This document shows positions 3,531 through 53,933 of a stretch of DNA of 64,000 nt, in pieces (within the stretch, counting starts at the first letter, position 1; each line of letters opens with the position of its first letter). Origin of the DNA: Bacteroidia bacterium. GTDB lineage: Bacteria > Bacteroidota > Bacteroidia > AKYH767-A > OLB10. The stretch covers positions 396,481-460,480 of the forward strand of contig JAXLTL010000001.1 of the NCBI GenBank assembly GCA_046330075.1, written 5' to 3'. Made by a program: the position numbers and the translations under genes. The notes under the pieces were generated by a model, which had not been told where the DNA came from, ran no database searches, and was given only the letters and a program-made list of their open reading frames with translations.

Positions 3531-4127
3531 ATGAGAGGAAAATGGGTGAGAAGGGTAGTGGTTTTTTTCCTGACATCCTGGATGGTAATTGTGTCTTTTT
3601 CATTTTCACCGCCCCCTGCAAAGGAACAGTTGCGATGGACCCATCCAGCTCAGCTTACTGCAAATGATTTCCGTAAACCTTCTGCCGGTAGAAAAGTGAG
3701 AGTGAAAACCGGTCGCCGTTCCTGGCGGATTCTGGAAGGGTATATTTATTCAGGCATCGCTTTCAGTTATGAAGTAAAGGGCAAACAGGTGAAATATGAA
3801 GTGTATGCGTTTATGTTGCCGGATGATTCATGGCTTGCTGATCCGGAAAATCAGGCGACTCTGGAACATGAACAGGCGCATTTTAATATTACGGAGATTT
3901 ATGCACGTCGCTTGCGACAGCAACTGAAACAGGTGGCTCGTTCAGAAGATGCCCGAAAGAAATATCAGCAAACGATGAAAGATCTTGCGAAAGTTCAGGC
4001 AGATTTTGATCATGATCAGGAAGGAGAAACCGGCGTTACTGATCAGTGGAAAAAGAAAATTCAGTCGGAACTGAATGAACGCGCAGCGTTTTCTTCCGCT
4101 CCGGTCATCCCTGGCCGGACTGATTAA
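3531..4127 (+). CDS. DUF922 domain protein (putative Zn-metallopeptidase-like, HExxH)
   Basis: N-terminal hydrophobic segment and an HEQAH motif. The start is chosen at the MRGKWV ATG that precedes the signal-like segment; the ORF track starts it at 3507. Confidence 0.55.
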   Translation: MRGKWVRRVVVFFLTSWMVIVSFSFSPPPAKEQLRWTHPAQLTANDFRKPSAGRKVRVKTGRRSWRILEGYIYSGIAFSYEVKGKQVKYEVYAFMLPDDSWLADPENQATLEHEQAHFNITEIYARRLRQQLKQVARSEDARKKYQQTMKDLAKVQADFDHDQEGETGVTDQWKKKIQSELNERAAFSSAPVIPGRTD

Positions 4128-45827: not shown

Positions 45828-46190
45828 ATGGACTTACTTAAAGTAGCTCAAGAGCAGCTCATCGAAAAGAAACAGTGGCCTGAATTCAAGTCTGGCGATA
45901 CCATTACTGTTTACTATAAAATTATTGAAGGTAACAAGGAGCGTGAACAGCAGTTCCAGGGTGTAGTATTACAACGCCGAGGTGCTGGTCTTACCGAGAC
46001 GTTTACCATTCGCAAAATTTCCGGTGGTGTAGGCGTTGAGCGTATCTTCCCGATCAACAGCCCTAAGCTGACCCGTATCGATGTAAATAAGCGCGGTAAA
46101 GTACGTCGTGCACGTATTTTCTACCTCCGCGATATGATAGGCAAAAATGCCCGCATCGAAGAGAAAAAAGTGAATACTGCGAAAGCCTGA
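45828..46190 (+). CDS. rplS: 50S ribosomal protein L19
   Basis: Begins [15 protein letters not shown]...[44 protein letters not shown]. Confidence 0.95.
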
Positions 46191-46210
46191 TTTCGCTTGA
46201 ATATCCCAAG

Positions 46211-46243
46211 AGGCCATCGGATTCCGGTGGCCTTTTTATTTTA
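46211..46243 (+). terminator. Rho-independent terminator of rplS
   Basis: aggccatcgg-attc-cggtggcct followed by ttttatttt. Confidence 0.7.
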
Positions 46244-46333
46244 TCCGCCGGTAAATAGTTTTTAAAACCGGAATGGTGAATAAAGCCCCGTTTGTTCATG
46301 TGAACCTAACCGTGAAAAGCCTAACTTAGAATC

Positions 46334-46864
46334 GTGGAATTGGAAAAGCGTGTTTTTCGTATTTTTCTTTGCTGTTGTCTGTTCATTGCCGTGAACGGGA
46401 ATGCTCAGCATATTATCATCACACAGGTGTACAGGGCGAATGCAGATAGTGATGCAGTGTATTCGGTATCTATCCGCAATTCAAGCAACGACAGTATCAT
46501 GGTGTTACATACACAGGAAGCAAATCTTCCTCCTTTTTTGAATAACTATAAATATGTTCAGGGTGGTGAAAACGGCGCTATCATCACCTTGCATTTCGGA
46601 AAAAGTAATAACCCACTGTTACCGGAGAAATACCGTGCTACAAAGACATTGCCTCCTAAAGGTCAACTGGAATTGTATTTCACTTTACCTGCAACATTTA
46701 ATGATAAGCCCAAGCAGCTTGTTCTGACTTATTCCATGCTTACAGAAAAGTTTTATCCCGATTTTCTTAAACTCGAGAAAACCGGCACCAACGCCGCCAC
46801 CAAAAAGTGCAAGGCACTGAAGGAAAAACATGGAAGAGTGTTTTATAAGAAGGTGATGTTTTAA
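46334..46864 (+). CDS. Hypothetical secreted protein
   Basis: Signal peptide (CCCLFIAVNGNAQ); 176 aa; no recognisable domain. Confidence 0.5.
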   Translation: MELEKRVFRIFLCCCLFIAVNGNAQHIIITQVYRANADSDAVYSVSIRNSSNDSIMVLHTQEANLPPFLNNYKYVQGGENGAIITLHFGKSNNPLLPEKYRATKTLPPKGQLELYFTLPATFNDKPKQLVLTYSMLTEKFYPDFLKLEKTGTNAATKKCKALKEKHGRVFYKKVMF

Positions 46865-46868
46865 CCGA

Positions 46869-46990
46869 GGGCCTTTTAACATAAACCCTAAACTCAGGCT
46901 TCAGGCCTCAGGCTTCAAGCCTCAAAACTCTAAACTGTCAACTGAAAACTGTCAACCTATAACCTATAACCTATAACCTATAACCTATAA
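46869..46990. repeat. Microsatellite block: ctcaggcttcaggcctcaggcttcaagcctca, (aaactgtcaac)x2, (cctataa)x5
   Basis: Tandem short repeats read directly from the sequence. Confidence 0.85.
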
Positions 46991-47022
46991 CTTTATACTT
47001 CATCATTGTAATAGTGGGAGTA

Positions 47023-47360
47023 AATTTCCCTCGGTTCCCAGAGTTGCAAATCCAATGAAAAAACGCTTCGCGTTTCATTTCTTTTTTCTGGCTTGTGCTC
47101 TCATACAAGTTTGGATCACTTGTCAGAAAAAAGAAAAGGCTTCCGTTGGAAGCCTTTTTCATTGGATTTACCCGTGGTCCCAGAGGGATTGAATTTCCCT
47201 CGGTTCCCAGAGTTGCAAATCCAATGAAAAAACGCTTCGCGTTTCAATTCTTTTTTCTGGCTTGTGCTCTCAAACAAGTTTGGATCACTTGCCAGAAAAA
47301 AGAAAAGGCTTCCGTTGGAAGCCTTTTTCATTGGATTTACCCGTGGTCCCAGAGGGATTC
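47023..47360. repeat. Two tandem 169-bp units (47023-47191, 47192-47360); each contains two terminator-like hairpins and ends with a copy of the last 16 nt of tRNA-Arg plus its 3' flank
   Basis: The units are more than 95% identical. The motif tggtcccagagggatt (reverse complement of the tRNA 3' end) occurs at 47175 and 47344. Hairpins: aaaaggcttccgttggaagcctttt and aacgcttcgcgtt. The + and - ORFs across this region are repeat artefacts. Confidence 0.85.
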
Positions 47361-47417
47361 AAACCCCCAACCTTCTGATCCGTAGTCAGATGCTCTATTC
47401 AGTTAAGCTATGGAACC
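47344..47417 (-). tRNA. tRNA-Arg (anticodon ACG), 74 nt, no encoded CCA
   Basis: Manually folded. Acceptor GGTTCCA/TGGGACC; D-stem GCTT/GAGC; anticodon stem TCTGA/TCAGA with loop CTACGGA (U33, anticodon ACG, G37); T-stem GGGGG/CCCTC with loop TTTGAAT; discriminator A. Confidence 0.85.
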
Positions 47418-47727
47418 ATTCCCGTTTTCGGGACGGCAAAAATAGTGGAATTATCTCATAGAGCAAAAAAAATGATTTTACTTTTTCAGGTAATTCAAAA
47501 AGTGATTGTATCTTATTGATAATAAATATATTGAAAAGTTGGTGAAAGACTTGCGAGATGCGTTTAAATGCGATTTTTCTTTATTGACCACCTGAGTCAT
47601 AACCATGGAAACATTGGGTTGAAAAGAATTCCTATGGGTTCATCGTTGATAGCATTTCAGGATGTTGGAGTTACCTGGTTGTAACGTAGTATTTCAACCC
47701 TTATCTTTACTTTCCCAAAACAATGTA

Positions 47728-49275
47728 ATGCGCTTCTTCCTGGCCTTCCTGTTGCTCTCAGCCTATAGCCTGAAAGCACAAAACGTGCAGATCAGTTCTG
47801 CGAACCTGCCCAATGAACCATCTATCATGATGGATCCTAAACATCCGCAGTACCTGATCGCAGCATCCAACATCGACAACTATTATCTCAGCAGCGATAC
47901 CGGACATACCTGGACAGCGCATAATTTATCATCTTCCTATGGTGTTTGGGGTGATCCGATGATCGCAGTAGATACCGCAGGTGACTTCTACTTTTTTCAT
48001 CTCAGTAATCCGGCTTCCGGAAACTGGATCGATCGTATCGTTTGCCAGAAAACAACGGATCATGGTCAATCCTGGAATAATGGATCTTTTACAGGGTTGA
48101 ACGGAACAAAAGCACAGGATAAACATTGGGTGGCGATCGACCGGAACAATAACAACATGTATGTTACCTGGACGCAGTTCGATTCTTATGGCAGTTCGGA
48201 CCCTCTGGATTCATCGATCATTCTTTTTTCTCGCTCACTGGACGCCGGACAAACCTGGTCGACTCCGGTAAGGATCAACAAAGTGGCTGGCGACTGCATC
48301 GACAGTGATAACACCGTGGAAGGTGCTGTACCTGCTGTTGGCCCGAATGGTGAGGTTTTCGTGGCCTGGGCCGGACCCAATGGATTAGTGTTTAATCGCT
48401 CCCTCGATCAGGGACTTACCTGGCTGCCAAATGAAATCGCGATTGACCCAATGCCTACCGGTTGGGATTATGCTGTTTCAGGTATTTACCGAGCCAATGG
48501 GTTGCCGGTTACTGTTTGTGATGTCAGTGGCGGACCGAATAACGGAACAATTTATGTCAATTGGTCTGATCAACGAAATGGCGCCAGCAATACAGATATC
48601 TTCCTGGCAAAGTCGACAGACGGGGGCAACACCTGGTCGGCACCGGTGAAAGTGAACAATGATAATTCCAACCGTCAGCAGTTTTTTACCTATATGGCGA
48701 TTGATCAAACCAACGGAAATCTATACTTTGTTTTTTATGACCGCAGGCGATTTACCTCTGATTCAACGGATGTATATCTTGCACTTTCCACAGATGGCGG
48801 AAGCACGTTCATCAATCAACGAATCAGTGCAACACCTTTTTATCCGAATGATCAGGTGTTTTTCGGTGACTATACGAATATAACTGTGCACGATGGCATT
48901 GTGCGCCCGATCTGGACACGCCTTCACAATGGACAGCTTAGTGTGTGGACAGATCTGGCATCTTATGCTTCAATGACCACCGGCACAAACGAGGCCGAGG
49001 TCAGCAACGATAATAACGTCACCGTATATCCGAATCCTGCGAGTGATGTCAGTTATCTCTCTTTCAAATTACATGAGAAATCATCGGTACGTATCTCGGT
49101 TTTGAATTCGAAGGGGCAGGAGGTAAAGGAAGTCCTTAAAACAGAATCACGTCCCTTCGGTAAATACCTGGAGAAAATCGATCTCCGTGCATTAGGCCTT
49201 TCTTCCGGTAATTATCTGCTCCGGCTGGAAATAAACGGGAAAGTGCATACGTCCCGCCAGATTATTGTTGACTGA
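47728..49275 (+). CDS. Secreted BNR/Asp-box repeat (sialidase/glycoside-hydrolase-like) protein with T9SS C-terminal sorting domain
   Basis: Signal peptide MRFFLAFLLLSAYSLKAQ; Asp-boxes SSDTGHTW, TTDHGQSW, SLDAGQTW, SLDQGLTW, STDGGNTW, STDGGSTF; C-terminal Por_Secre_tail (VTVYPNPASDVSYLSF...GNYLLRLE). Confidence 0.8.
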   Translation: MRFFLAFLLLSAYSLKAQNVQISSANLPNEPSIMMDPKHPQYLIAASNIDNYYLSSDTGHTWTAHNLSSSYGVWGDPMIAVDTAGDFYFFHLSNPASGNWIDRIVCQKTTDHGQSWNNGSFTGLNGTKAQDKHWVAIDRNNNNMYVTWTQFDSYGSSDPLDSSIILFSRSLDAGQTWSTPVRINKVAGDCIDSDNTVEGAVPAVGPNGEVFVAWAGPNGLVFNRSLDQGLTWLPNEIAIDPMPTGWDYAVSGIYRANGLPVTVCDVSGGPNNGTIYVNWSDQRNGASNTDIFLAKSTDGGNTWSAPVKVNNDNSNRQQFFTYMAIDQTNGNLYFVFYDRRRFTSDSTDVYLALSTDGGSTFINQRISATPFYPNDQVFFGDYTNITVHDGIVRPIWTRLHNGQLSVWTDLASYASMTTGTNEAEVSNDNNVTVYPNPASDVSYLSFKLHEKSSVRISVLNSKGQEVKEVLKTESRPFGKYLEKIDLRALGLSSGNYLLRLEINGKVHTSRQIIVD

Positions 49276-53051: not shown

Positions 53052-53933
53052 TCAGTTCGTGATCAGCTTTAAATTATCGAGATACACGGTTCCTTCGGTA
53101 GCACCGGACGCGAGCTGCATTCCGAAAATAATTTTGAACTTAAGTGCATTGCCACTGGCATTGATGTATGGTCCCAGACGGATATAAATCTTATTCCACT
53201 CTGATTTTGGGTTTAAGGAGATCACCGGATTCGTTGATTGACCGAACGAACTGATCGCCACAATCCCCATATTAAAGGATTGATTGCATTTGTAGTTCAT
53301 CTCCAGATAGATATCCCTGCCCTTGGTTAAAGCATAGCCATCACCAACCGTCACACATTCTATATAATCATTGGTGGAGTTCACCGTCATCTTCAGACTC
53401 CTTTTTCCTTCAAAAACAACCAGCGAATCCGGCTGAATATTCACTTTACTGTTTCCGGTAGTATCCAGGCTGATGCCACCTCCGCTGGTGTCTGATTCAA
53501 AATCTTCATACCATACATATTGTACTCCTGAGAAATAAGAAACGTTAATGGTATCAATGGTTGTAACCTGTCCTGGAGTTAAACTAACGGTCTTCTTCGT
53601 AAACTGGTACAGCGGATAGGCTTCATTGGTTGAGGCTATTCCATTGGCTTCAATTCCTGCCCCAAATGACAACTCATGTACACCATCCAATAATACCGGG
53701 AAACGGGCCGGAAGTTCAAAGGTGCCGAGGTATTTATTGTCTGCATACACCCAGACGTCAGTTATGTTTGCAGAATTGGTGCCCTGCGTTGCATAATTCG
53801 AAGAAACGTTGAAGTTTTTCACTTCGATATAGGAGGGAACCGGTTCCGCGGGATTAATCATCTCACAGCCTCCTGTCAACAGGATTGCGAATAAAAATGG
53901 CAGAAAGGAAAGTAAGCGTGGGGTGATTTTCAT
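53052..53933 (-). CDS. Hypothetical lipoprotein
   Basis: Lipoprotein signal LLTGGCEM; 293 aa; no recognisable domain. Sits downstream of the priming glycosyltransferase. Confidence 0.55.
   Translation of the reverse strand: MKITPRLLSFLPFLFAILLTGGCEMINPAEPVPSYIEVKNFNVSSNYATQGTNSANITDVWVYADNKYLGTFELPARFPVLLDGVHELSFGAGIEANGIASTNEAYPLYQFTKKTVSLTPGQVTTIDTINVSYFSGVQYVWYEDFESDTSGGGISLDTTGNSKVNIQPDSLVVFEGKRSLKMTVNSTNDYIECVTVGDGYALTKGRDIYLEMNYKCNQSFNMGIVAISSFGQSTNPVISLNPKSEWNKIYIRLGPYINASGNALKFKIIFGMQLASGATEGTVYLDNLKLITN

What the first reader, a model, noticed from the sequence alone, without database searches (positions are those of the whole stretch)
46869..47420. tRNA-Arg(ACG) followed by two tandem 169-bp units that each reduplicate the tRNA 3' end plus terminator hairpins, next to microsatellites
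The 16-nt 3' terminus of the tRNA (AATCCCTCTGGGACCA) and its downstream flank (CGGGTAAATCCAATG...) occur twice in tandem, 169 bp apart, with a third more degenerate trace (agtgggagta) at the proximal end. Each unit carries two factor-independent terminator-like hairpins oriented for minus-strand transcription (AAAAAGGCTTCCAACGGAAGCC+U-run and AACGCGAAGCGTT+U-run). Reduplicated tRNA 3' ends are the classic scar of site-specific integration and excision at tRNA genes (attL/attR), yet no integrase or cargo is present. This could be a relic of serial integrations, a tRNA-linked repeat family, or a small-RNA-encoding unit co-transcribed with the tRNA. Immediately upstream lie three different microsatellites, including (cctataa)x5, which suggest slippage-prone DNA.
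Basis: seen in the sequence. Interest (0 to 1): 0.55.

Follow-up and report, generated by a model that had tools for sequence, protein, structure and literature searches.

The report
Tandemly duplicated tRNA-Arg trailer module
Just downstream of a tRNA-Arg gene in an uncultured Bacteroidia genome, a 169-bp block made of the tRNA's last 16 bases plus a conserved, hairpin-rich terminator region has been copied in tandem, much like the classic tyrT repeats of E. coli; it looks like a local duplication rather than a scar of virus or island integration, and the four-hairpin fold it carries is a new candidate structured element of unknown function.

Summary
tRNA-Arg(ACG) lies on the minus strand (47344-47417). 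It is followed by two 169-bp tandem units (97% identical), each starting with the tRNA's last 16 nt. There is also a degenerate third start (10/16, P~0.001) and three heptamer microsatellites.

Comparative data change the interpretation. Each unit copies a module that relatives carry once, directly 3' of the same tRNA. The module is the native trailer plus terminator hairpin (P2), embedded in a ~130-nt four-way junction (P1-P4). A hairpin (J) holding a copy of the tRNA 3' end follows it. Five sequence types of the junction fold alike (z -7 to -14), and 40 of 53 pairs covary. It matches no Rfam family, is not dispersed, and has no viral counterpart.

A full-unit duplication arose independently in another lineage (188 bp x2.1). 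Copies match the local tRNA variant where tRNAs differ most, distal copies decay, and copy number differs between near-identical assemblies.

Best reading: slippage or unequal exchange between direct repeats flanking a palindrome duplicated a conserved tRNA-trailer terminator module. It is an analogue, not a homologue, of the E. coli tyrT 178-bp repeats. An integration scar is unlikely. Whether the junction acts as RNA or DNA is unresolved.

The parts
47344..47417 (-). tRNA-Arg(ACG) gene; CCA not encoded (…TGGGACC-A|CGGG)
   Evidence: ARAGORN; Rfam tRNA 62.1 bits
47437..47444 (-). Bacteroidetes-type -7 promoter box TATTTTTG about 20 nt upstream of the tRNA (inferred promoter of the transcription unit)
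   Evidence: Read from the sequence. A TAnnTTTGC box sits at the same place in all relatives. The consensus itself is from general knowledge.
47191..47359 (-). Proximal 169-bp unit in tRNA register: last 16 nt of the tRNA, trailer, four-way junction, 5' half of the J hairpin
   Evidence: TRF and the repeat finder; register
47212..47343 (-). Proximal four-way-junction module (P1 closing stem, P2 terminator hairpin, long P3, P4 GCGAAGC hairpin)
   Evidence: MFE -61.2 kcal/mol, z=-9.3; covariance model R1 158 bits; covariation in relatives
47303..47327 (-). P2 hairpin plus U-run: predicted intrinsic terminator of the tRNA transcript (bidirectional pattern)
   Evidence: Terminator scan on both strands; homologous hairpin plus U-run in relatives without the module
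47175..47216 (-). Junction (J) region: 27-mer mini-duplicate of [tRNA last 12 nt + 15 nt trailer], forming a T-arm-like hairpin GAGGGA-AATTCAA-TCCCTC with the second copy of the tRNA 3' end (47175-47190)
   Evidence: TRF 27-bp period at 47161-47212; alignment P<0.001; fold
47022..47190 (-). Distal 169-bp unit (decaying copy; 4 differences from the proximal unit, 2 of the 3 inside the junction break base pairs)
   Evidence: 3 of the 12 window-vs-L001 differences fall here
47043..47174 (-). Distal four-way-junction module
   Evidence: R1 152 bits; MFE z=-7.4
47134..47158 (-). P2 hairpin plus U-run of the distal unit
47006..47021 (-). Third, degenerate copy of the tRNA 3' end (ACTCCCACTATTACAA), preceded by a second J 5' half (47022-47047)
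   Evidence: 10/16 in fixed register, P=0.0013; homologous trace in L012 and L018; clear truncated second unit in L031
46893..46991 (.). Three heptamer microsatellites, (CTCAGGC)n, (AACTGTC)n and (AACCTAT)n, between the array and the stop codon of the convergent 176-aa gene
   Evidence: TRF; length and type vary among relatives, and many short-read contigs end here

Best explanation
The feature is a recent, probably polymorphic, tandem duplication of a conserved 3'-flank module of the tRNA-Arg(ACG) gene.

The ancestral, single-copy state is seen in relatives. It reads: tRNA, then a 4-5 nt linker, then a ~130-nt nested palindrome, then a short hairpin (J). The palindrome folds as a four-way junction. 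Its closing stem P1 pairs the trailer with a distal arm. P2 plus a U-run is the tRNA's intrinsic terminator. P3 is a long hairpin whose base pairs that U-run with an A-run. P4 is a small GAA-loop hairpin. The 3' arm of J is a copy of the tRNA's 3' end.

Because the real tRNA 3' end and its copy are direct repeats sitting at the two feet of a palindrome, slipped-strand mispairing or unequal sister-chromatid exchange between them adds or removes whole units (inferred mechanism). In this genome that produced two 169-bp units. Only the tRNA-proximal copy, which supplies the real tRNA end and its terminator, stays under constraint. Distal copies decay and are eroded by microsatellites.

What is shown: the anatomy, homology across lineages, covariation, independent duplication in a second lineage, decay of distal copies, and the absence of dispersed or viral copies. 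What is inferred: the slippage or unequal-exchange mechanism, and that the junction acts in the tRNA transcription unit as a compound or fail-safe terminator-insulator that also compacts read-through trailer RNA.
For: Anatomy.

Same locus in other assemblies: L001 has 2 units, while L007, L005 and L012 have 1. The gene-to-gene spacing is 864 vs 695 bp, a difference of exactly 169.

Homologous module directly 3' of the same tRNA: found in L018, L031, L013, L032, L036/L038 and L023. It stays with the tRNA whatever the neighbouring gene or its orientation.

Folding: each lineage's module folds on its own into the same four-way junction, z -7.4 to -13.9.

Covariation: on a structural alignment of 7 divergent modules, 91.9% of cells are paired vs 68.0% shuffled (0/500) and 34-44% when partners are slid. 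40 of 53 pairs change on both sides, and all helices covary.

Substitutions: changes between close relatives' proximal modules are mostly compensated, WC<->G.U in tRNA sense, or unpaired, with a few mismatches at the inner end of P3 where the model's alignment is unreliable. In the window's distal copy, 2 of 3 changes break pairs.

Independent duplication: L038 has 188 bp x2.1 (98%) starting 14 nt inside its tRNA, followed by decaying partial units. L013 and L032 carry decayed arrays.

Local tRNA variant: copies carry CCGCGACC in L032/L038 and CCGGGA in L031, matching the local tRNA.

Origin of J: its 5' half is a direct duplicate of [tRNA last 12 nt + 15 nt trailer], P<0.001 in four lineages. 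This indicates local duplication.

Native flank: the trailer plus P2 plus U-run also occur in relatives without the module (L016, L020, L033).

Not dispersed: model R1 finds no other copy in the 64-kb window or ~180 kb of loci. A metagenome scan with the closing inverted repeat found only the orthologous locus.

Known analogue verified: E. coli tyrV is followed by 178 bp x3.1, each unit starting with the tRNA's last 19 nt.
Against: No expression, 3'-end or termination data exist for this organism. If P2 plus the U-run terminates efficiently, the rest of the junction would be transcribed only by read-through. A plain terminator role therefore does not explain why P1, P3 and P4 covary. The strand test is weak: about 7 G.U events vs 2-3 A.C events, and the tRNA-sense fold is more stable in 6 of 7 cases. 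Copy numbers come from short-read metagenome assemblies that can collapse tandem copies; L001's two units are identical to each other. Slippage or unequal exchange is inferred from geometry, not observed. The origin of the first direct repeat is unknown. The module has been lost or truncated in some relatives (L016, L020), so it is dispensable there. Tracking of the local tRNA variant is imperfect: L018's degenerate copy has CTCC where its own tRNA has CTCT.
Confidence: 0.6

Rival explanations
1. Functional trailer small-RNA array (rtT-like). Each unit is transcribed with the tRNA by read-through. The four-way junction plus J accumulates as a stable RNA. The tRNA 3'-end copy acts as a processing mimic that defines unit ends, so copy number tunes dosage.
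For: There is strong covariation in all helices. Substitutions in proximal copies are structure-neutral, including WC<->G.U switches that only work in tRNA sense. The tRNA-sense fold is more stable in 6 of 7 cases. Loops are RNA-typical in sense: CUUG/CUCG at the P3 apex and GAAA in L032's P2. A nearly invariant unpaired stretch, ATTTGCAAYTC.GGG, follows P1. The module always follows the tRNA in tRNA orientation, even where no convergent gene could transcribe the other strand (L032/L038). For the E. coli precedent, rttR is encoded by one tyrT repeat unit (PMC3318445).
Against: P2 plus the U-run is a textbook terminator placed before most of the unit. Distal units decay rather than being maintained. 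J does not form a good acceptor/T minihelix; by my reading of the sequence only 3-4 of 7 acceptor-like pairs form (fold). The module is lost in some lineages. The strand asymmetry is not significant.
Confidence: 0.15
2. DNA-level palindrome. The junction is maintained as a cruciform or single-stranded-DNA structure, or simply by quasi-palindrome (template-switch) correction. It has no RNA function beyond the P2 terminator. The duplications are by-products of palindrome instability.
For: Terminators on both strands would stop either transcript before the full P1 can be made (reasoning). A decayed J hairpin in L038 has had its tRNA-derived arm rewritten into a perfect complement of the other arm, CCCTCCTTACCC vs GGGTAAGGAGGG, with dG -53.6. 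That is what template-switch correction produces. P4 contains GCGAAGC, which I recall as an unusually stable DNA mini-hairpin (from memory). Direct repeats flanking palindromes are known slippage hot spots (general knowledge). The whole intergenic region is rich in tandem repeats in every lineage.
Against: Proximal modules are far better conserved than neutral intergenic DNA. L018 vs L031 modules are 94.7% identical, while the adjacent gene is 75.7% identical and the DNA beyond the promoter is unalignable. One-sided changes are G.U-compatible in tRNA sense. The sequence-invariant unpaired motif is not explained by this model.
Confidence: 0.15
3. Scars of site-specific integration (attL/attR). 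One or several integrative elements entered the T-loop/3' end of the tRNA and were later deleted down to their ends, or left a minimal cis-mobilizable remnant. The repeats would be att cores.
For: The repeated tRNA segment starts in the T-loop (AAT of UUUGAAU). The copy is preceded by a T-stem-like arm (GAGGGA…TCCCTC), as expected for T-loop att sites (T-loop sublocations in 10.1101/2020.11.02.365908, PMC1762012 and PMC3146451). Arrays of 3'-end direct repeats from serial integration are known at Dehalococcoides ssrA (PMC3146451). Copies are progressively more degenerate away from the tRNA.
Against: There is no integrase or cargo within ~6 kb, nor between the repeats in about 15 related loci. 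The 'element' would be about 150 bp. The DNA after the tRNA-proximal repeat is the native trailer and terminator shared with module-less relatives. The T-stem-like arm is a duplicate of the trailer, and the 'AAT' can derive from the trailer's CCAAT. Viral-contig scans for the tRNA 3' 20-mer and the conserved 21-mer gave 0 hits, and phage blastn hit only generic tRNAs. New full units arise by exchange within the shared core; the L038 junction has the J left flank and the tRNA right flank.
Confidence: 0.07
4. Plus-strand Phe-type leader-peptide attenuator (sub-threshold Rfam Phe_leader hit with ORF MKKRFAFHFFF…).
For: Phe_leader scores 39.4 and 38.6 bits, E~2e-4, one hit per unit. There is a 45-aa ORF with a Phe-rich start.
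Against: The score is below the gathering threshold of 55. The ATG is part of the conserved P1 arm CCAATG, and the ORF is not conserved: in L018 and L013 the frame reads MRSLRSGFYFSF* and MRVLRTDLLFRSP* (my translation of the sequences). No antiterminator alternative exists. Downstream on the plus strand lie an antisense tRNA and a BNR/T9SS protein gene, not a phe gene.
Confidence: 0.01

Closest known systems
E. coli tyrT/tyrV 3'-flank repeats (178 bp x3.1; rtT/RttR RNA, Rfam RF00391; tpr ORF)
   Same: In both cases a tandem repeat of similar size (178 vs 169 bp) directly abuts a tRNA gene. Each unit begins with the tRNA's terminal bases, starting at the same tRNA position: AAT of the T-loop. 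That gives 19 nt with an encoded CCA in E. coli and 16 nt without CCA here. Both are lineage-restricted and of unknown function (10.1101/2024.07.17.603846; PMC3318445).
   Different: There is no sequence or structure homology: RtT gives no hit at E<=10. The E. coli unit is not unusually structured (z=-0.7 sense, +0.1 antisense), whereas this unit is a four-way junction with z about -9. The E. coli units are about equally similar to each other (95%) and all four tRNA-end copies are perfect; here the distal copies decay. No tpr-like conserved ORF is present. From memory only: tyrT transcripts end at a rho-dependent site inside the repeats, whereas here an intrinsic terminator sits at the start of each unit.
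att-site direct repeats and tandem island arrays at tRNA/tmRNA genes (e.g. Dehalococcoides ssrA islands; cis-mobilizable elements and accretion)
   Same: There are direct repeats of the 3' end of the RNA gene that start in the T-loop, with several copies in a row downstream (PMC3146451).
   Different: Those repeats bound kilobase-scale islands with integrase modules or cargo. Here the repeats are 27-190 bp apart and have no genes between them. The intervening DNA is the native trailer and terminator, and no mobile counterpart was found.
Bidirectional intrinsic terminators between convergent genes
   Same: P2 plus a U-run in tRNA sense, and P4' and P2' plus U-runs in antisense, match the terminator pattern. 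The position corresponds to the plain terminator of relatives.
   Different: A 13-17-bp closing stem joins arms about 100 nt apart, and a long central hairpin is added, giving a conserved four-way junction with covariation in every helix. Simple terminators have nothing like this.
MITE / REP / ERIC-type palindromic intergenic repeats
   Same: The size is about 130 bp. It has terminal inverted repeats, a strongly folded palindrome, and flanking direct repeats.
   Different: It is single-locus, always directly 3' of the orthologous tRNA, and not dispersed. The arms covary between lineages instead of being family-conserved.
tRNA 3' external transcribed spacer RNAs (e.g. 3'ETS-leuZ sponge of E. 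coli; from memory, not checked in papers here)
   Same: It would be a functional RNA derived from the trailer of a tRNA transcript.
   Different: No target, expression or processing evidence exists here. The known examples are short and are not tandemly repeated with the tRNA end.

Membership tests
tyrT-type tRNA 3'-flank tandem repeat / RtT RNA (RF00391) | Tandem repeat abutting the tRNA gene, each unit containing the tRNA's terminal nucleotides | tested here: met
   169 bp x2 with 16 nt of the tRNA. E. coli reference re-measured as 178 bp x3.1 with 19 nt.
tyrT-type tRNA 3'-flank tandem repeat / RtT RNA (RF00391) | Sequence/structure match to the RtT covariance model | tested here: not met
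   cmscan with permissive filters at E<=10 over 46000-48500 lists no RtT hit. Nothing was found in relatives at E<=0.01.
tyrT-type tRNA 3'-flank tandem repeat / RtT RNA (RF00391) | Discrete RNA released from the repeat during tRNA processing | not testable with these tools
   No transcript data are available for this uncultured organism.
tyrT-type tRNA 3'-flank tandem repeat / RtT RNA (RF00391) | Small basic ORF (tpr) inside the unit | tested here: not met
   ORFs in the unit are not conserved. Helices change by paired substitutions, which is not a coding pattern.
Integrase att scars at a tRNA gene (T-loop sublocation; CIME/accretion arrays) | Direct repeat of the tRNA 3' segment beginning in the T-loop | tested here: met
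   The repeat starts at AAT of UUUGAAU. Caveat: the AAT can equally derive from the trailer's CCAAT in the 27-mer duplicate.
Integrase att scars at a tRNA gene (T-loop sublocation; CIME/accretion arrays) | Integrase gene or foreign cargo between or next to the repeats, in this genome or in relatives | tested here: not met
   Neighbours within ~6 kb are LptFG, a glycosyltransferase, L19, the 176-aa protein, a BNR/T9SS protein and a permease. The same holds in about 15 related loci. The rest of the 64-kb window was not scanned for integrases.
Integrase att scars at a tRNA gene (T-loop sublocation; CIME/accretion arrays) | DNA adjoining the tRNA-proximal repeat is element-derived, with the native flank displaced beyond the distal repeat | tested here: not met
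   The trailer TAAAT..CAATG.. plus P2 plus U-run next to the tRNA is shared with module-less relatives L016, L020 and L033.
Integrase att scars at a tRNA gene (T-loop sublocation; CIME/accretion arrays) | Matching attP or element ends in phages, viral contigs or other loci | tested here: not met
   There were 0 hits in two viral-contig scans, and phage blastn found only generic tRNA hits. Plasmids were not searched.
MITE / REP-like dispersed palindromic element | Many dispersed copies in one genome | tested here: not met
   R1 finds copies only directly 3' of tRNA-Arg in 181 kb searched, including the whole window. The metagenome scan found only the orthologous locus plus one chance hit. Whole genomes could not be searched.
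MITE / REP-like dispersed palindromic element | Terminal inverted repeats with an abutting target-site duplication | tested here: inconclusive
   Inverted arms are present. The flanking direct repeats are offset (5 nt before P1-5', 4 nt after P1-3') and extend 27 nt into the left arm itself, which does not fit a simple target-site duplication.
Intrinsic (rho-independent) terminator | GC-rich hairpin followed by a U tract just after the gene | tested here: met
   P2 on the minus strand at 47327-47303 and 47158-47134, with 11 pairs, 5 of them GC, then CTTTTTTCTG.
Intrinsic (rho-independent) terminator | Termination activity | not testable with these tools
   Needs Term-seq or in vitro transcription.
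Phe leader attenuator (RF01859) | Score at or above the gathering threshold, a conserved Phe-rich leader ORF, and a phe operon downstream | tested here: not met
   39.4 bits vs 55. The ORF is not conserved in L018 or L013 (sequences). Downstream lie an antisense tRNA and a BNR-protein gene.
Conserved structured non-coding RNA (new motif) | Secondary structure conserved with compensatory changes across lineages | tested here: met
   40 of 53 pairs change on both sides; 91.9% paired vs 68% shuffled and ~40% slid. Independent MFE folds agree. Caveat: the alignment was fitted by the model.
Conserved structured non-coding RNA (new motif) | Evidence that the constraint acts on RNA of one strand | tested here: inconclusive
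   The sense fold is more stable in 6 of 7 cases. There are about 7 G.U vs 2-3 A.C events. One-sided changes are G.U-compatible in sense. This is not significant, and DNA-level correction was observed.
Invertible DNA segment (inverton) | Inverted repeats flanking a segment found in both orientations | tested here: not met
   The module has the same orientation relative to the tRNA in all loci that carry it. No recombinase gene is nearby.

The most novel reading that the evidence does not exclude
The four-way junction plus J hairpin is a previously undescribed structured RNA, co-transcribed with tRNA-Arg(ACG) in a clade of uncultured Bacteroidia. Its built-in copy of the tRNA 3' end acts as a mimic for tRNA end-processing or as a decoy. 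Unit-length RNAs would then be released from the trailer, with tandem duplication tuning their dose. That would make it an independent, structurally defined counterpart of the still-unexplained E. coli rtT RNA.
Probability: 0.15. Interest if true: 0.7.

Novelty: new variant of a known kind. Interest (0 to 1): 0.5.

Why it matters
Tandem repeats that re-use the end of a tRNA gene have been known from the E. coli tyrT locus for decades without a settled explanation. This is an independent case in a distant phylum, and it comes with a comparative series: single copy, fresh duplications in two lineages, decaying arrays and losses. The series shows how such arrays are born and die. It also shows that reduplicated tRNA 3' ends need not be integration scars, which is a useful caution for island-finding methods that rely on that signature. 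Separately, the roughly 130-nt four-way junction with covariation in every helix matches no Rfam family. It is a candidate new structured element tied to a tRNA trailer, and testing whether it acts as RNA or as DNA is straightforward.

Tried and rejected
(1) Phe-leader attenuator on the plus strand. The Rfam hit is sub-threshold, the ORF is not conserved and no antiterminator exists. Rejected.

(2) Each unit is an internally deleted copy of the whole tRNA gene, including promoter and leader. The similarity of the J region to the tRNA upstream region is not significant in any lineage, p=0.09-0.63. Rejected.

(3) Dispersed MITE/REP family. There is no other copy in the window or loci, and the metagenome scan gave only the orthologous locus plus a chance AT-rich hit, L011.

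(4) attP in viruses or phages. Nothing found.

(5) Inverton. Orientation is invariant.

(6) Two separate flanking direct-repeat systems. These resolved into one: the J 5' half is a 27-mer duplicate of [tRNA end + trailer].

(7) Extension of the third trace into the trailer. Not significant in the window, L012 or L018, p=0.35-0.5. It is clear only in L031.

(8) G.U vs A.C strand test. My first count (7 vs 0) shrank to about 7 vs 2-3 on the structural alignment, so it is only suggestive.

(9) Near-match of the tRNA 3' end at 53169-53184. It lies inside an ORF and is chance.

(10) Horizontal exchange of the module. L012 has an L018-like backbone with a window-like intergenic tract, and L005 has different DNA beyond the tRNA. 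Both switches happen at segments conserved across species, so chimeric metagenome assembly cannot be excluded. I did not use this as evidence.

(11) Plain MAFFT alignment of the modules mis-registers P2 and P3, so a covariance-model alignment was used instead.

(12) The rtT paper PMC329039 is not held. The look-up of P0001's 1.44-Mb contig returned nothing.
Full report
**1. What is in the window**

ARAGORN finds a single tRNA in the 64 kb: tRNA-Arg(ACG) on the minus strand at 47343-47417. Rfam's tRNA model scores 62.1 bits at 47344-47417. CCA is not encoded; the gene ends …TGGGACC-A and continues CGGG.

TRF reports a 169-bp period, 2.0 copies, 97% matches at 47016-47359. The repeat finder gives 47013-47181 / 47182-47350. 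In tRNA register the proximal unit is 47359→47191 and the distal unit is 47190→47022. They differ at 4 of 169 positions.

Each unit begins with the last 16 nt of the tRNA. This 16-mer occurs exactly twice, against 0.04 matches expected even with two mismatches allowed. A third start at 47021→47006 matches 10/16 in the register fixed by the period, P=0.0013. Three heptamer microsatellites fill 46893-46991.

**2. Anatomy of a unit, read in tRNA sense**

- After the tRNA's discriminator base comes a 4-5 nt linker.
- P1-5' follows (TAAATCCAATGAAAAA).
- P2 follows (GGCTTCC-AAC-GGAAGCC) with a U-run. The scan calls this a terminator on both strands.
- P3 is a long hairpin whose base pairs that U-run with an A-run. 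Its apex is a CUUG loop.
- P4 is AAACGC-GAA-GCGTTT.
- P1-3' is TTTTTCATTGGATTTG.
- The conserved stretch GCAACTCTGGGAACC follows.
- Last comes a T-arm-like hairpin, GAGGGA-AATTCAA-TCCCTC. Its 3' arm is the next copy of the tRNA 3' end. I call this region J.

P1-P4 form a four-way junction with dG -61 kcal/mol and z=-9.3 against dinucleotide shuffles.

**3. The same locus elsewhere**

An exact look-up of the neighbouring L19 protein returned contigs from near-identical strains.

- L001 (GCA_964431855.1) has two units. It is 99.9% identical to the window over 12.4 kb, yet 3 of the 12 differences fall in the 169-bp distal unit.
- L007 and L005 have one unit. In L007 the gene-to-gene spacing is 695 vs 864 bp, a difference of exactly 169.
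- Many short-read contigs stop inside the microsatellites.

Copy number therefore probably varies between strains. However, short-read assemblies can collapse identical tandem copies, so this needs long reads.

**4. More distant relatives**

I used three routes: one genome-collection scan with the tRNA's T-arm/acceptor 25-mer, one metagenome scan with the closing inverted repeat, and look-ups of homologs of the adjacent 176-aa protein. Together they gave about 25 related loci, and the picture is consistent.

Loci with a homologous module directly 3' of the orthologous tRNA-Arg(ACG):

- L012: window type, single copy.
- L018: a second sequence type, single copy.
- L031: second type, one unit plus a truncated second unit.
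- L013: a third type, followed by a decayed array.
- L032, L036, L038: a fourth type. Here the tRNA is inverted relative to the 176-aa gene and has a different acceptor stem.
- L023: a fifth type, whose 136-bp x2.4 repeat duplicates the distal half of the module.

These are shown.

Other loci differ. L016 has lost most of the module to an 8-bp x23 microsatellite. L014, L015, L020, L033 and L034 have only a hairpin plus U-run. The trailer motif TAAAT..CAA..A-rich and the terminator hairpin are still recognisable in L016, L020 and L033. So P1-5' and P2 are the native trailer and terminator.

**5. Conserved structure**

Folded independently, every lineage's module gives the same four-way junction (z -7.4 to -13.9), although the helices have different sequences. 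For example, P1 is:

- AAATCCAATGAAAAA/TTTTTCATTGGATTT in the window;
- AAATGCCCTGCAC/GTGCAGGGCATTT in L032;
- AAGCATCAAACAAAT/ATTTGTTTGATATTT in L023.

I built covariance model R1 from the window type only. It finds the others at 47-78 bits, always abutting the tRNA. It finds nothing else in the 64-kb window or ~180 kb of loci.

I then made a structural alignment of the seven divergent modules, with the window type excluded. On it, 91.9% of cells pair, against 68.0±1.8% in shuffles (0/500) and 34-44% when partners are slid. 40 of 53 pairs change on both sides, and all helices covary. The alignment was fitted by the model, which biases the counts towards the structure, but the independent folds agree with it.

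Rfam has no matching family, either in the window at E<=10 or in relatives at E<=0.01.

**6. Which copies are constrained**

Between closely related proximal modules, most changes are compensated pairs, WC<->G.U switches that pair only in tRNA sense, or changes at unpaired positions. A few mismatches appear at the inner end of P3, where the model's alignment is unreliable. In the window's distal copy, 2 of 3 changes break pairs.

L018 and L031 modules are 94.7% identical, while the adjacent gene is 75.7% identical and the DNA beyond the tRNA promoter no longer aligns. Distal copies in L013, L032 and L038 are progressively truncated. So only the tRNA-proximal module appears to be maintained.

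**7. How the repeats arise**

- L038 carries an independent full-unit duplication: 188 bp x2.1 at 98%, starting 14 nt inside its tRNA. Its junction copy has J's left flank (…CCACT) and the tRNA's right flank (ACTAATAAATG…). That is the product expected from exchange within the shared core CCCTCCGCGACC.
- The copies carry the local tRNA variant: CCGCGACC in L032/L038 and CCGGGA in L031. This tracking is not perfect; L018's degenerate copy has CTCC where its own tRNA has CTCT.
- In the window, L018, L031 and L013 lineages, the 27 nt before the copy (AACTCTGGGAACCGAGGGAAATTCAAT) are a significant direct duplicate of [last 12 nt of the tRNA + first 15 nt of trailer], P<0.001. TRF had flagged this 27-bp period. 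The T-stem-like arm of J is therefore a trailer copy, and the 'AAT' that extends the tRNA identity to 16 nt can come from the trailer's CCAAT.
- The real tRNA end lies 5 nt before P1-5', and the duplicate lies 4 nt after P1-3'. They are direct repeats at the two feet of a palindrome. From general knowledge, this geometry favours slipped mispairing and unequal exchange. I infer that mechanism; it is not demonstrated.
- One decayed J hairpin in L038 has had its tRNA-derived arm rewritten into a perfect complement of the other arm. That shows template-switch 'quasi-palindrome correction' operating at this locus.

**8. Integration-scar reading**

Features that resemble T-loop att sites are present (for the literature). 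The discriminating tests fail:

- There is no integrase or cargo within ~6 kb or in any related locus.
- The tRNA-proximal flank is native.
- The att-like arm is a local duplicate.
- Viral and phage searches are empty.

An ancient integration as the very first seed cannot be excluded.

**9. RNA or DNA?**

Evidence for constraint on a tRNA-sense RNA:

- The sense fold is more stable in 6 of 7 cases.
- One-sided changes are G.U-compatible in sense.
- Loops are CUUG/CUCG and GAAA in sense.
- The module follows the tRNA even where nothing would transcribe the other strand (L032/L038).
- A nearly invariant unpaired motif, ATTTGCAAYTC.GGG, follows P1.

Evidence against:

- The G.U: A.C count is only about 7: 2-3.
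- P2 plus the U-run should stop most transcripts before P3-P4-P1-3' are made. The antisense transcript would likewise stop at P2'. The full junction can therefore form only in read-through RNA or in single-stranded DNA.

I therefore commit to a compound, fail-safe terminator/insulator of the tRNA unit whose read-through RNA folds into the junction, as the most likely role. The sRNA-array and DNA-level rivals stay open.

**10. Comparison with what is known**

I re-measured the E. coli K-12 tyrT-tyrV locus. It has 178 bp x3.1 at 95%, overlapping the tyrV 3' end. The last 19 nt of the tRNA recur four times at 178-nt spacing. rttR and tpr are annotated inside the array.

The repeat starts at the same tRNA position as here, AAT of the T-loop. 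The 19 nt equal 16 nt plus the encoded CCA.

The differences are clear. The E. coli unit is not unusually structured (z=-0.7). The units do not decay distally. RtT's model does not match this window. So the two work alike as tRNA-end-containing tandem repeats, but this is not a member of the RtT family. The function of rtT is itself still described as unknown.

**11. Verdict**

It is best read as a local tandem duplication of a conserved tRNA-Arg trailer/terminator module, not as an integration scar. The new elements are:

- a covarying four-way junction tied to a tRNA trailer, with no Rfam counterpart;
- a comparative series showing birth, concerted evolution and decay of tRNA-end-containing repeats.

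I rate it a new variant of a known kind, with interest of about 0.5.

Noticed in passing
window 47344-47417 (-); also the tRNA in L013-L038: The tRNA-Arg(ACG) has D-loop AACUGAAUA (A where G19 is expected) and T-loop UUUGAAU (U56 instead of C56). The tertiary G19-C56 pair seems to be replaced by A19-U56. This is conserved in every relative fetched.
   Followed up: partly
window 46893-46991; L016 3618-3804; L018 3600-3850; L033 4640-4840: The intergenic space between the 176-aa gene and the tRNA is a hot spot for tandem repeats of every scale, in every lineage. The window has three 7-mers. L016 has an 8-mer x23. L018 has a ~30-bp minisatellite with the hairpin TCCCGCAGCGAGCTGCGGGA x3. L033 has a 19-mer x4 and a ~70-bp x2 repeat. 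Many short-read contigs end inside them.
   Followed up: partly
L012 5270-5546 vs window 46850-47343 and L018: L012 has an L018-like backbone (93-97% identical), but its whole intergenic tract, including the module, is 95-100% window-like. The tract is bounded by the conserved 3' end of the 176-aa gene and by the tRNA. This is either a homologous-recombination import between species or a chimeric metagenome assembly.
   Followed up: partly
L005 4161-4268: The left flank is 100% identical to the window, but the tRNA has A7G and the DNA 5' of the tRNA is unrelated to the window (with its own TATCTTTGCG promoter box). This is either a rearrangement at the tRNA or an assembly chimera through the conserved tRNA and module.
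   Followed up: no
L033 3655-4002; L025 ~3640-3850: A small ORF with a weak GIY-YIG nuclease-domain hit (115 aa) is inserted right after the 176-aa gene in some lineages. It may be a mobile nuclease gene in the same variable spot.
   Followed up: no
L038 1385-1450: In a decayed J hairpin, the tRNA-derived 3' arm CCCTCCGCGACCC has become CCCTCCTTACCC, a perfect complement of the 5' arm GGGTAAGGAGGG (dG -53.6). This is an apparent case of quasi-palindrome (template-switch) correction.
   Followed up: partly
window 47055-47192 and 47234-47331 (+): There is a sub-threshold Rfam Phe_leader hit (39 bits vs 55) and a Phe-rich ORF, MKKRFAFHFFF…, on the strand opposite the tRNA. It is an artefact of U/A tracts plus hairpins and is not conserved in relatives.
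   Followed up: yes
window 47212-47216 and 47043-47047 with the adjoining P1-3' arm; all module-bearing loci: The stretch ATTTGCAAYTC.GGG right after P1 is almost invariant across four of the five module types, while the helices change completely. It superficially resembles the TTTG core of Bacteroidetes promoters, but it lacks the TA and shows no significant similarity to the tRNA's own promoter.
   Followed up: partly
L040 (E. coli NC_000913.3 1286000-1288200) 705-1263: The tyrV repeat and the repeat studied here begin at the same tRNA position, A58 of the T-loop. In E. coli all four copies of the 19-mer are perfect.
   Followed up: partly
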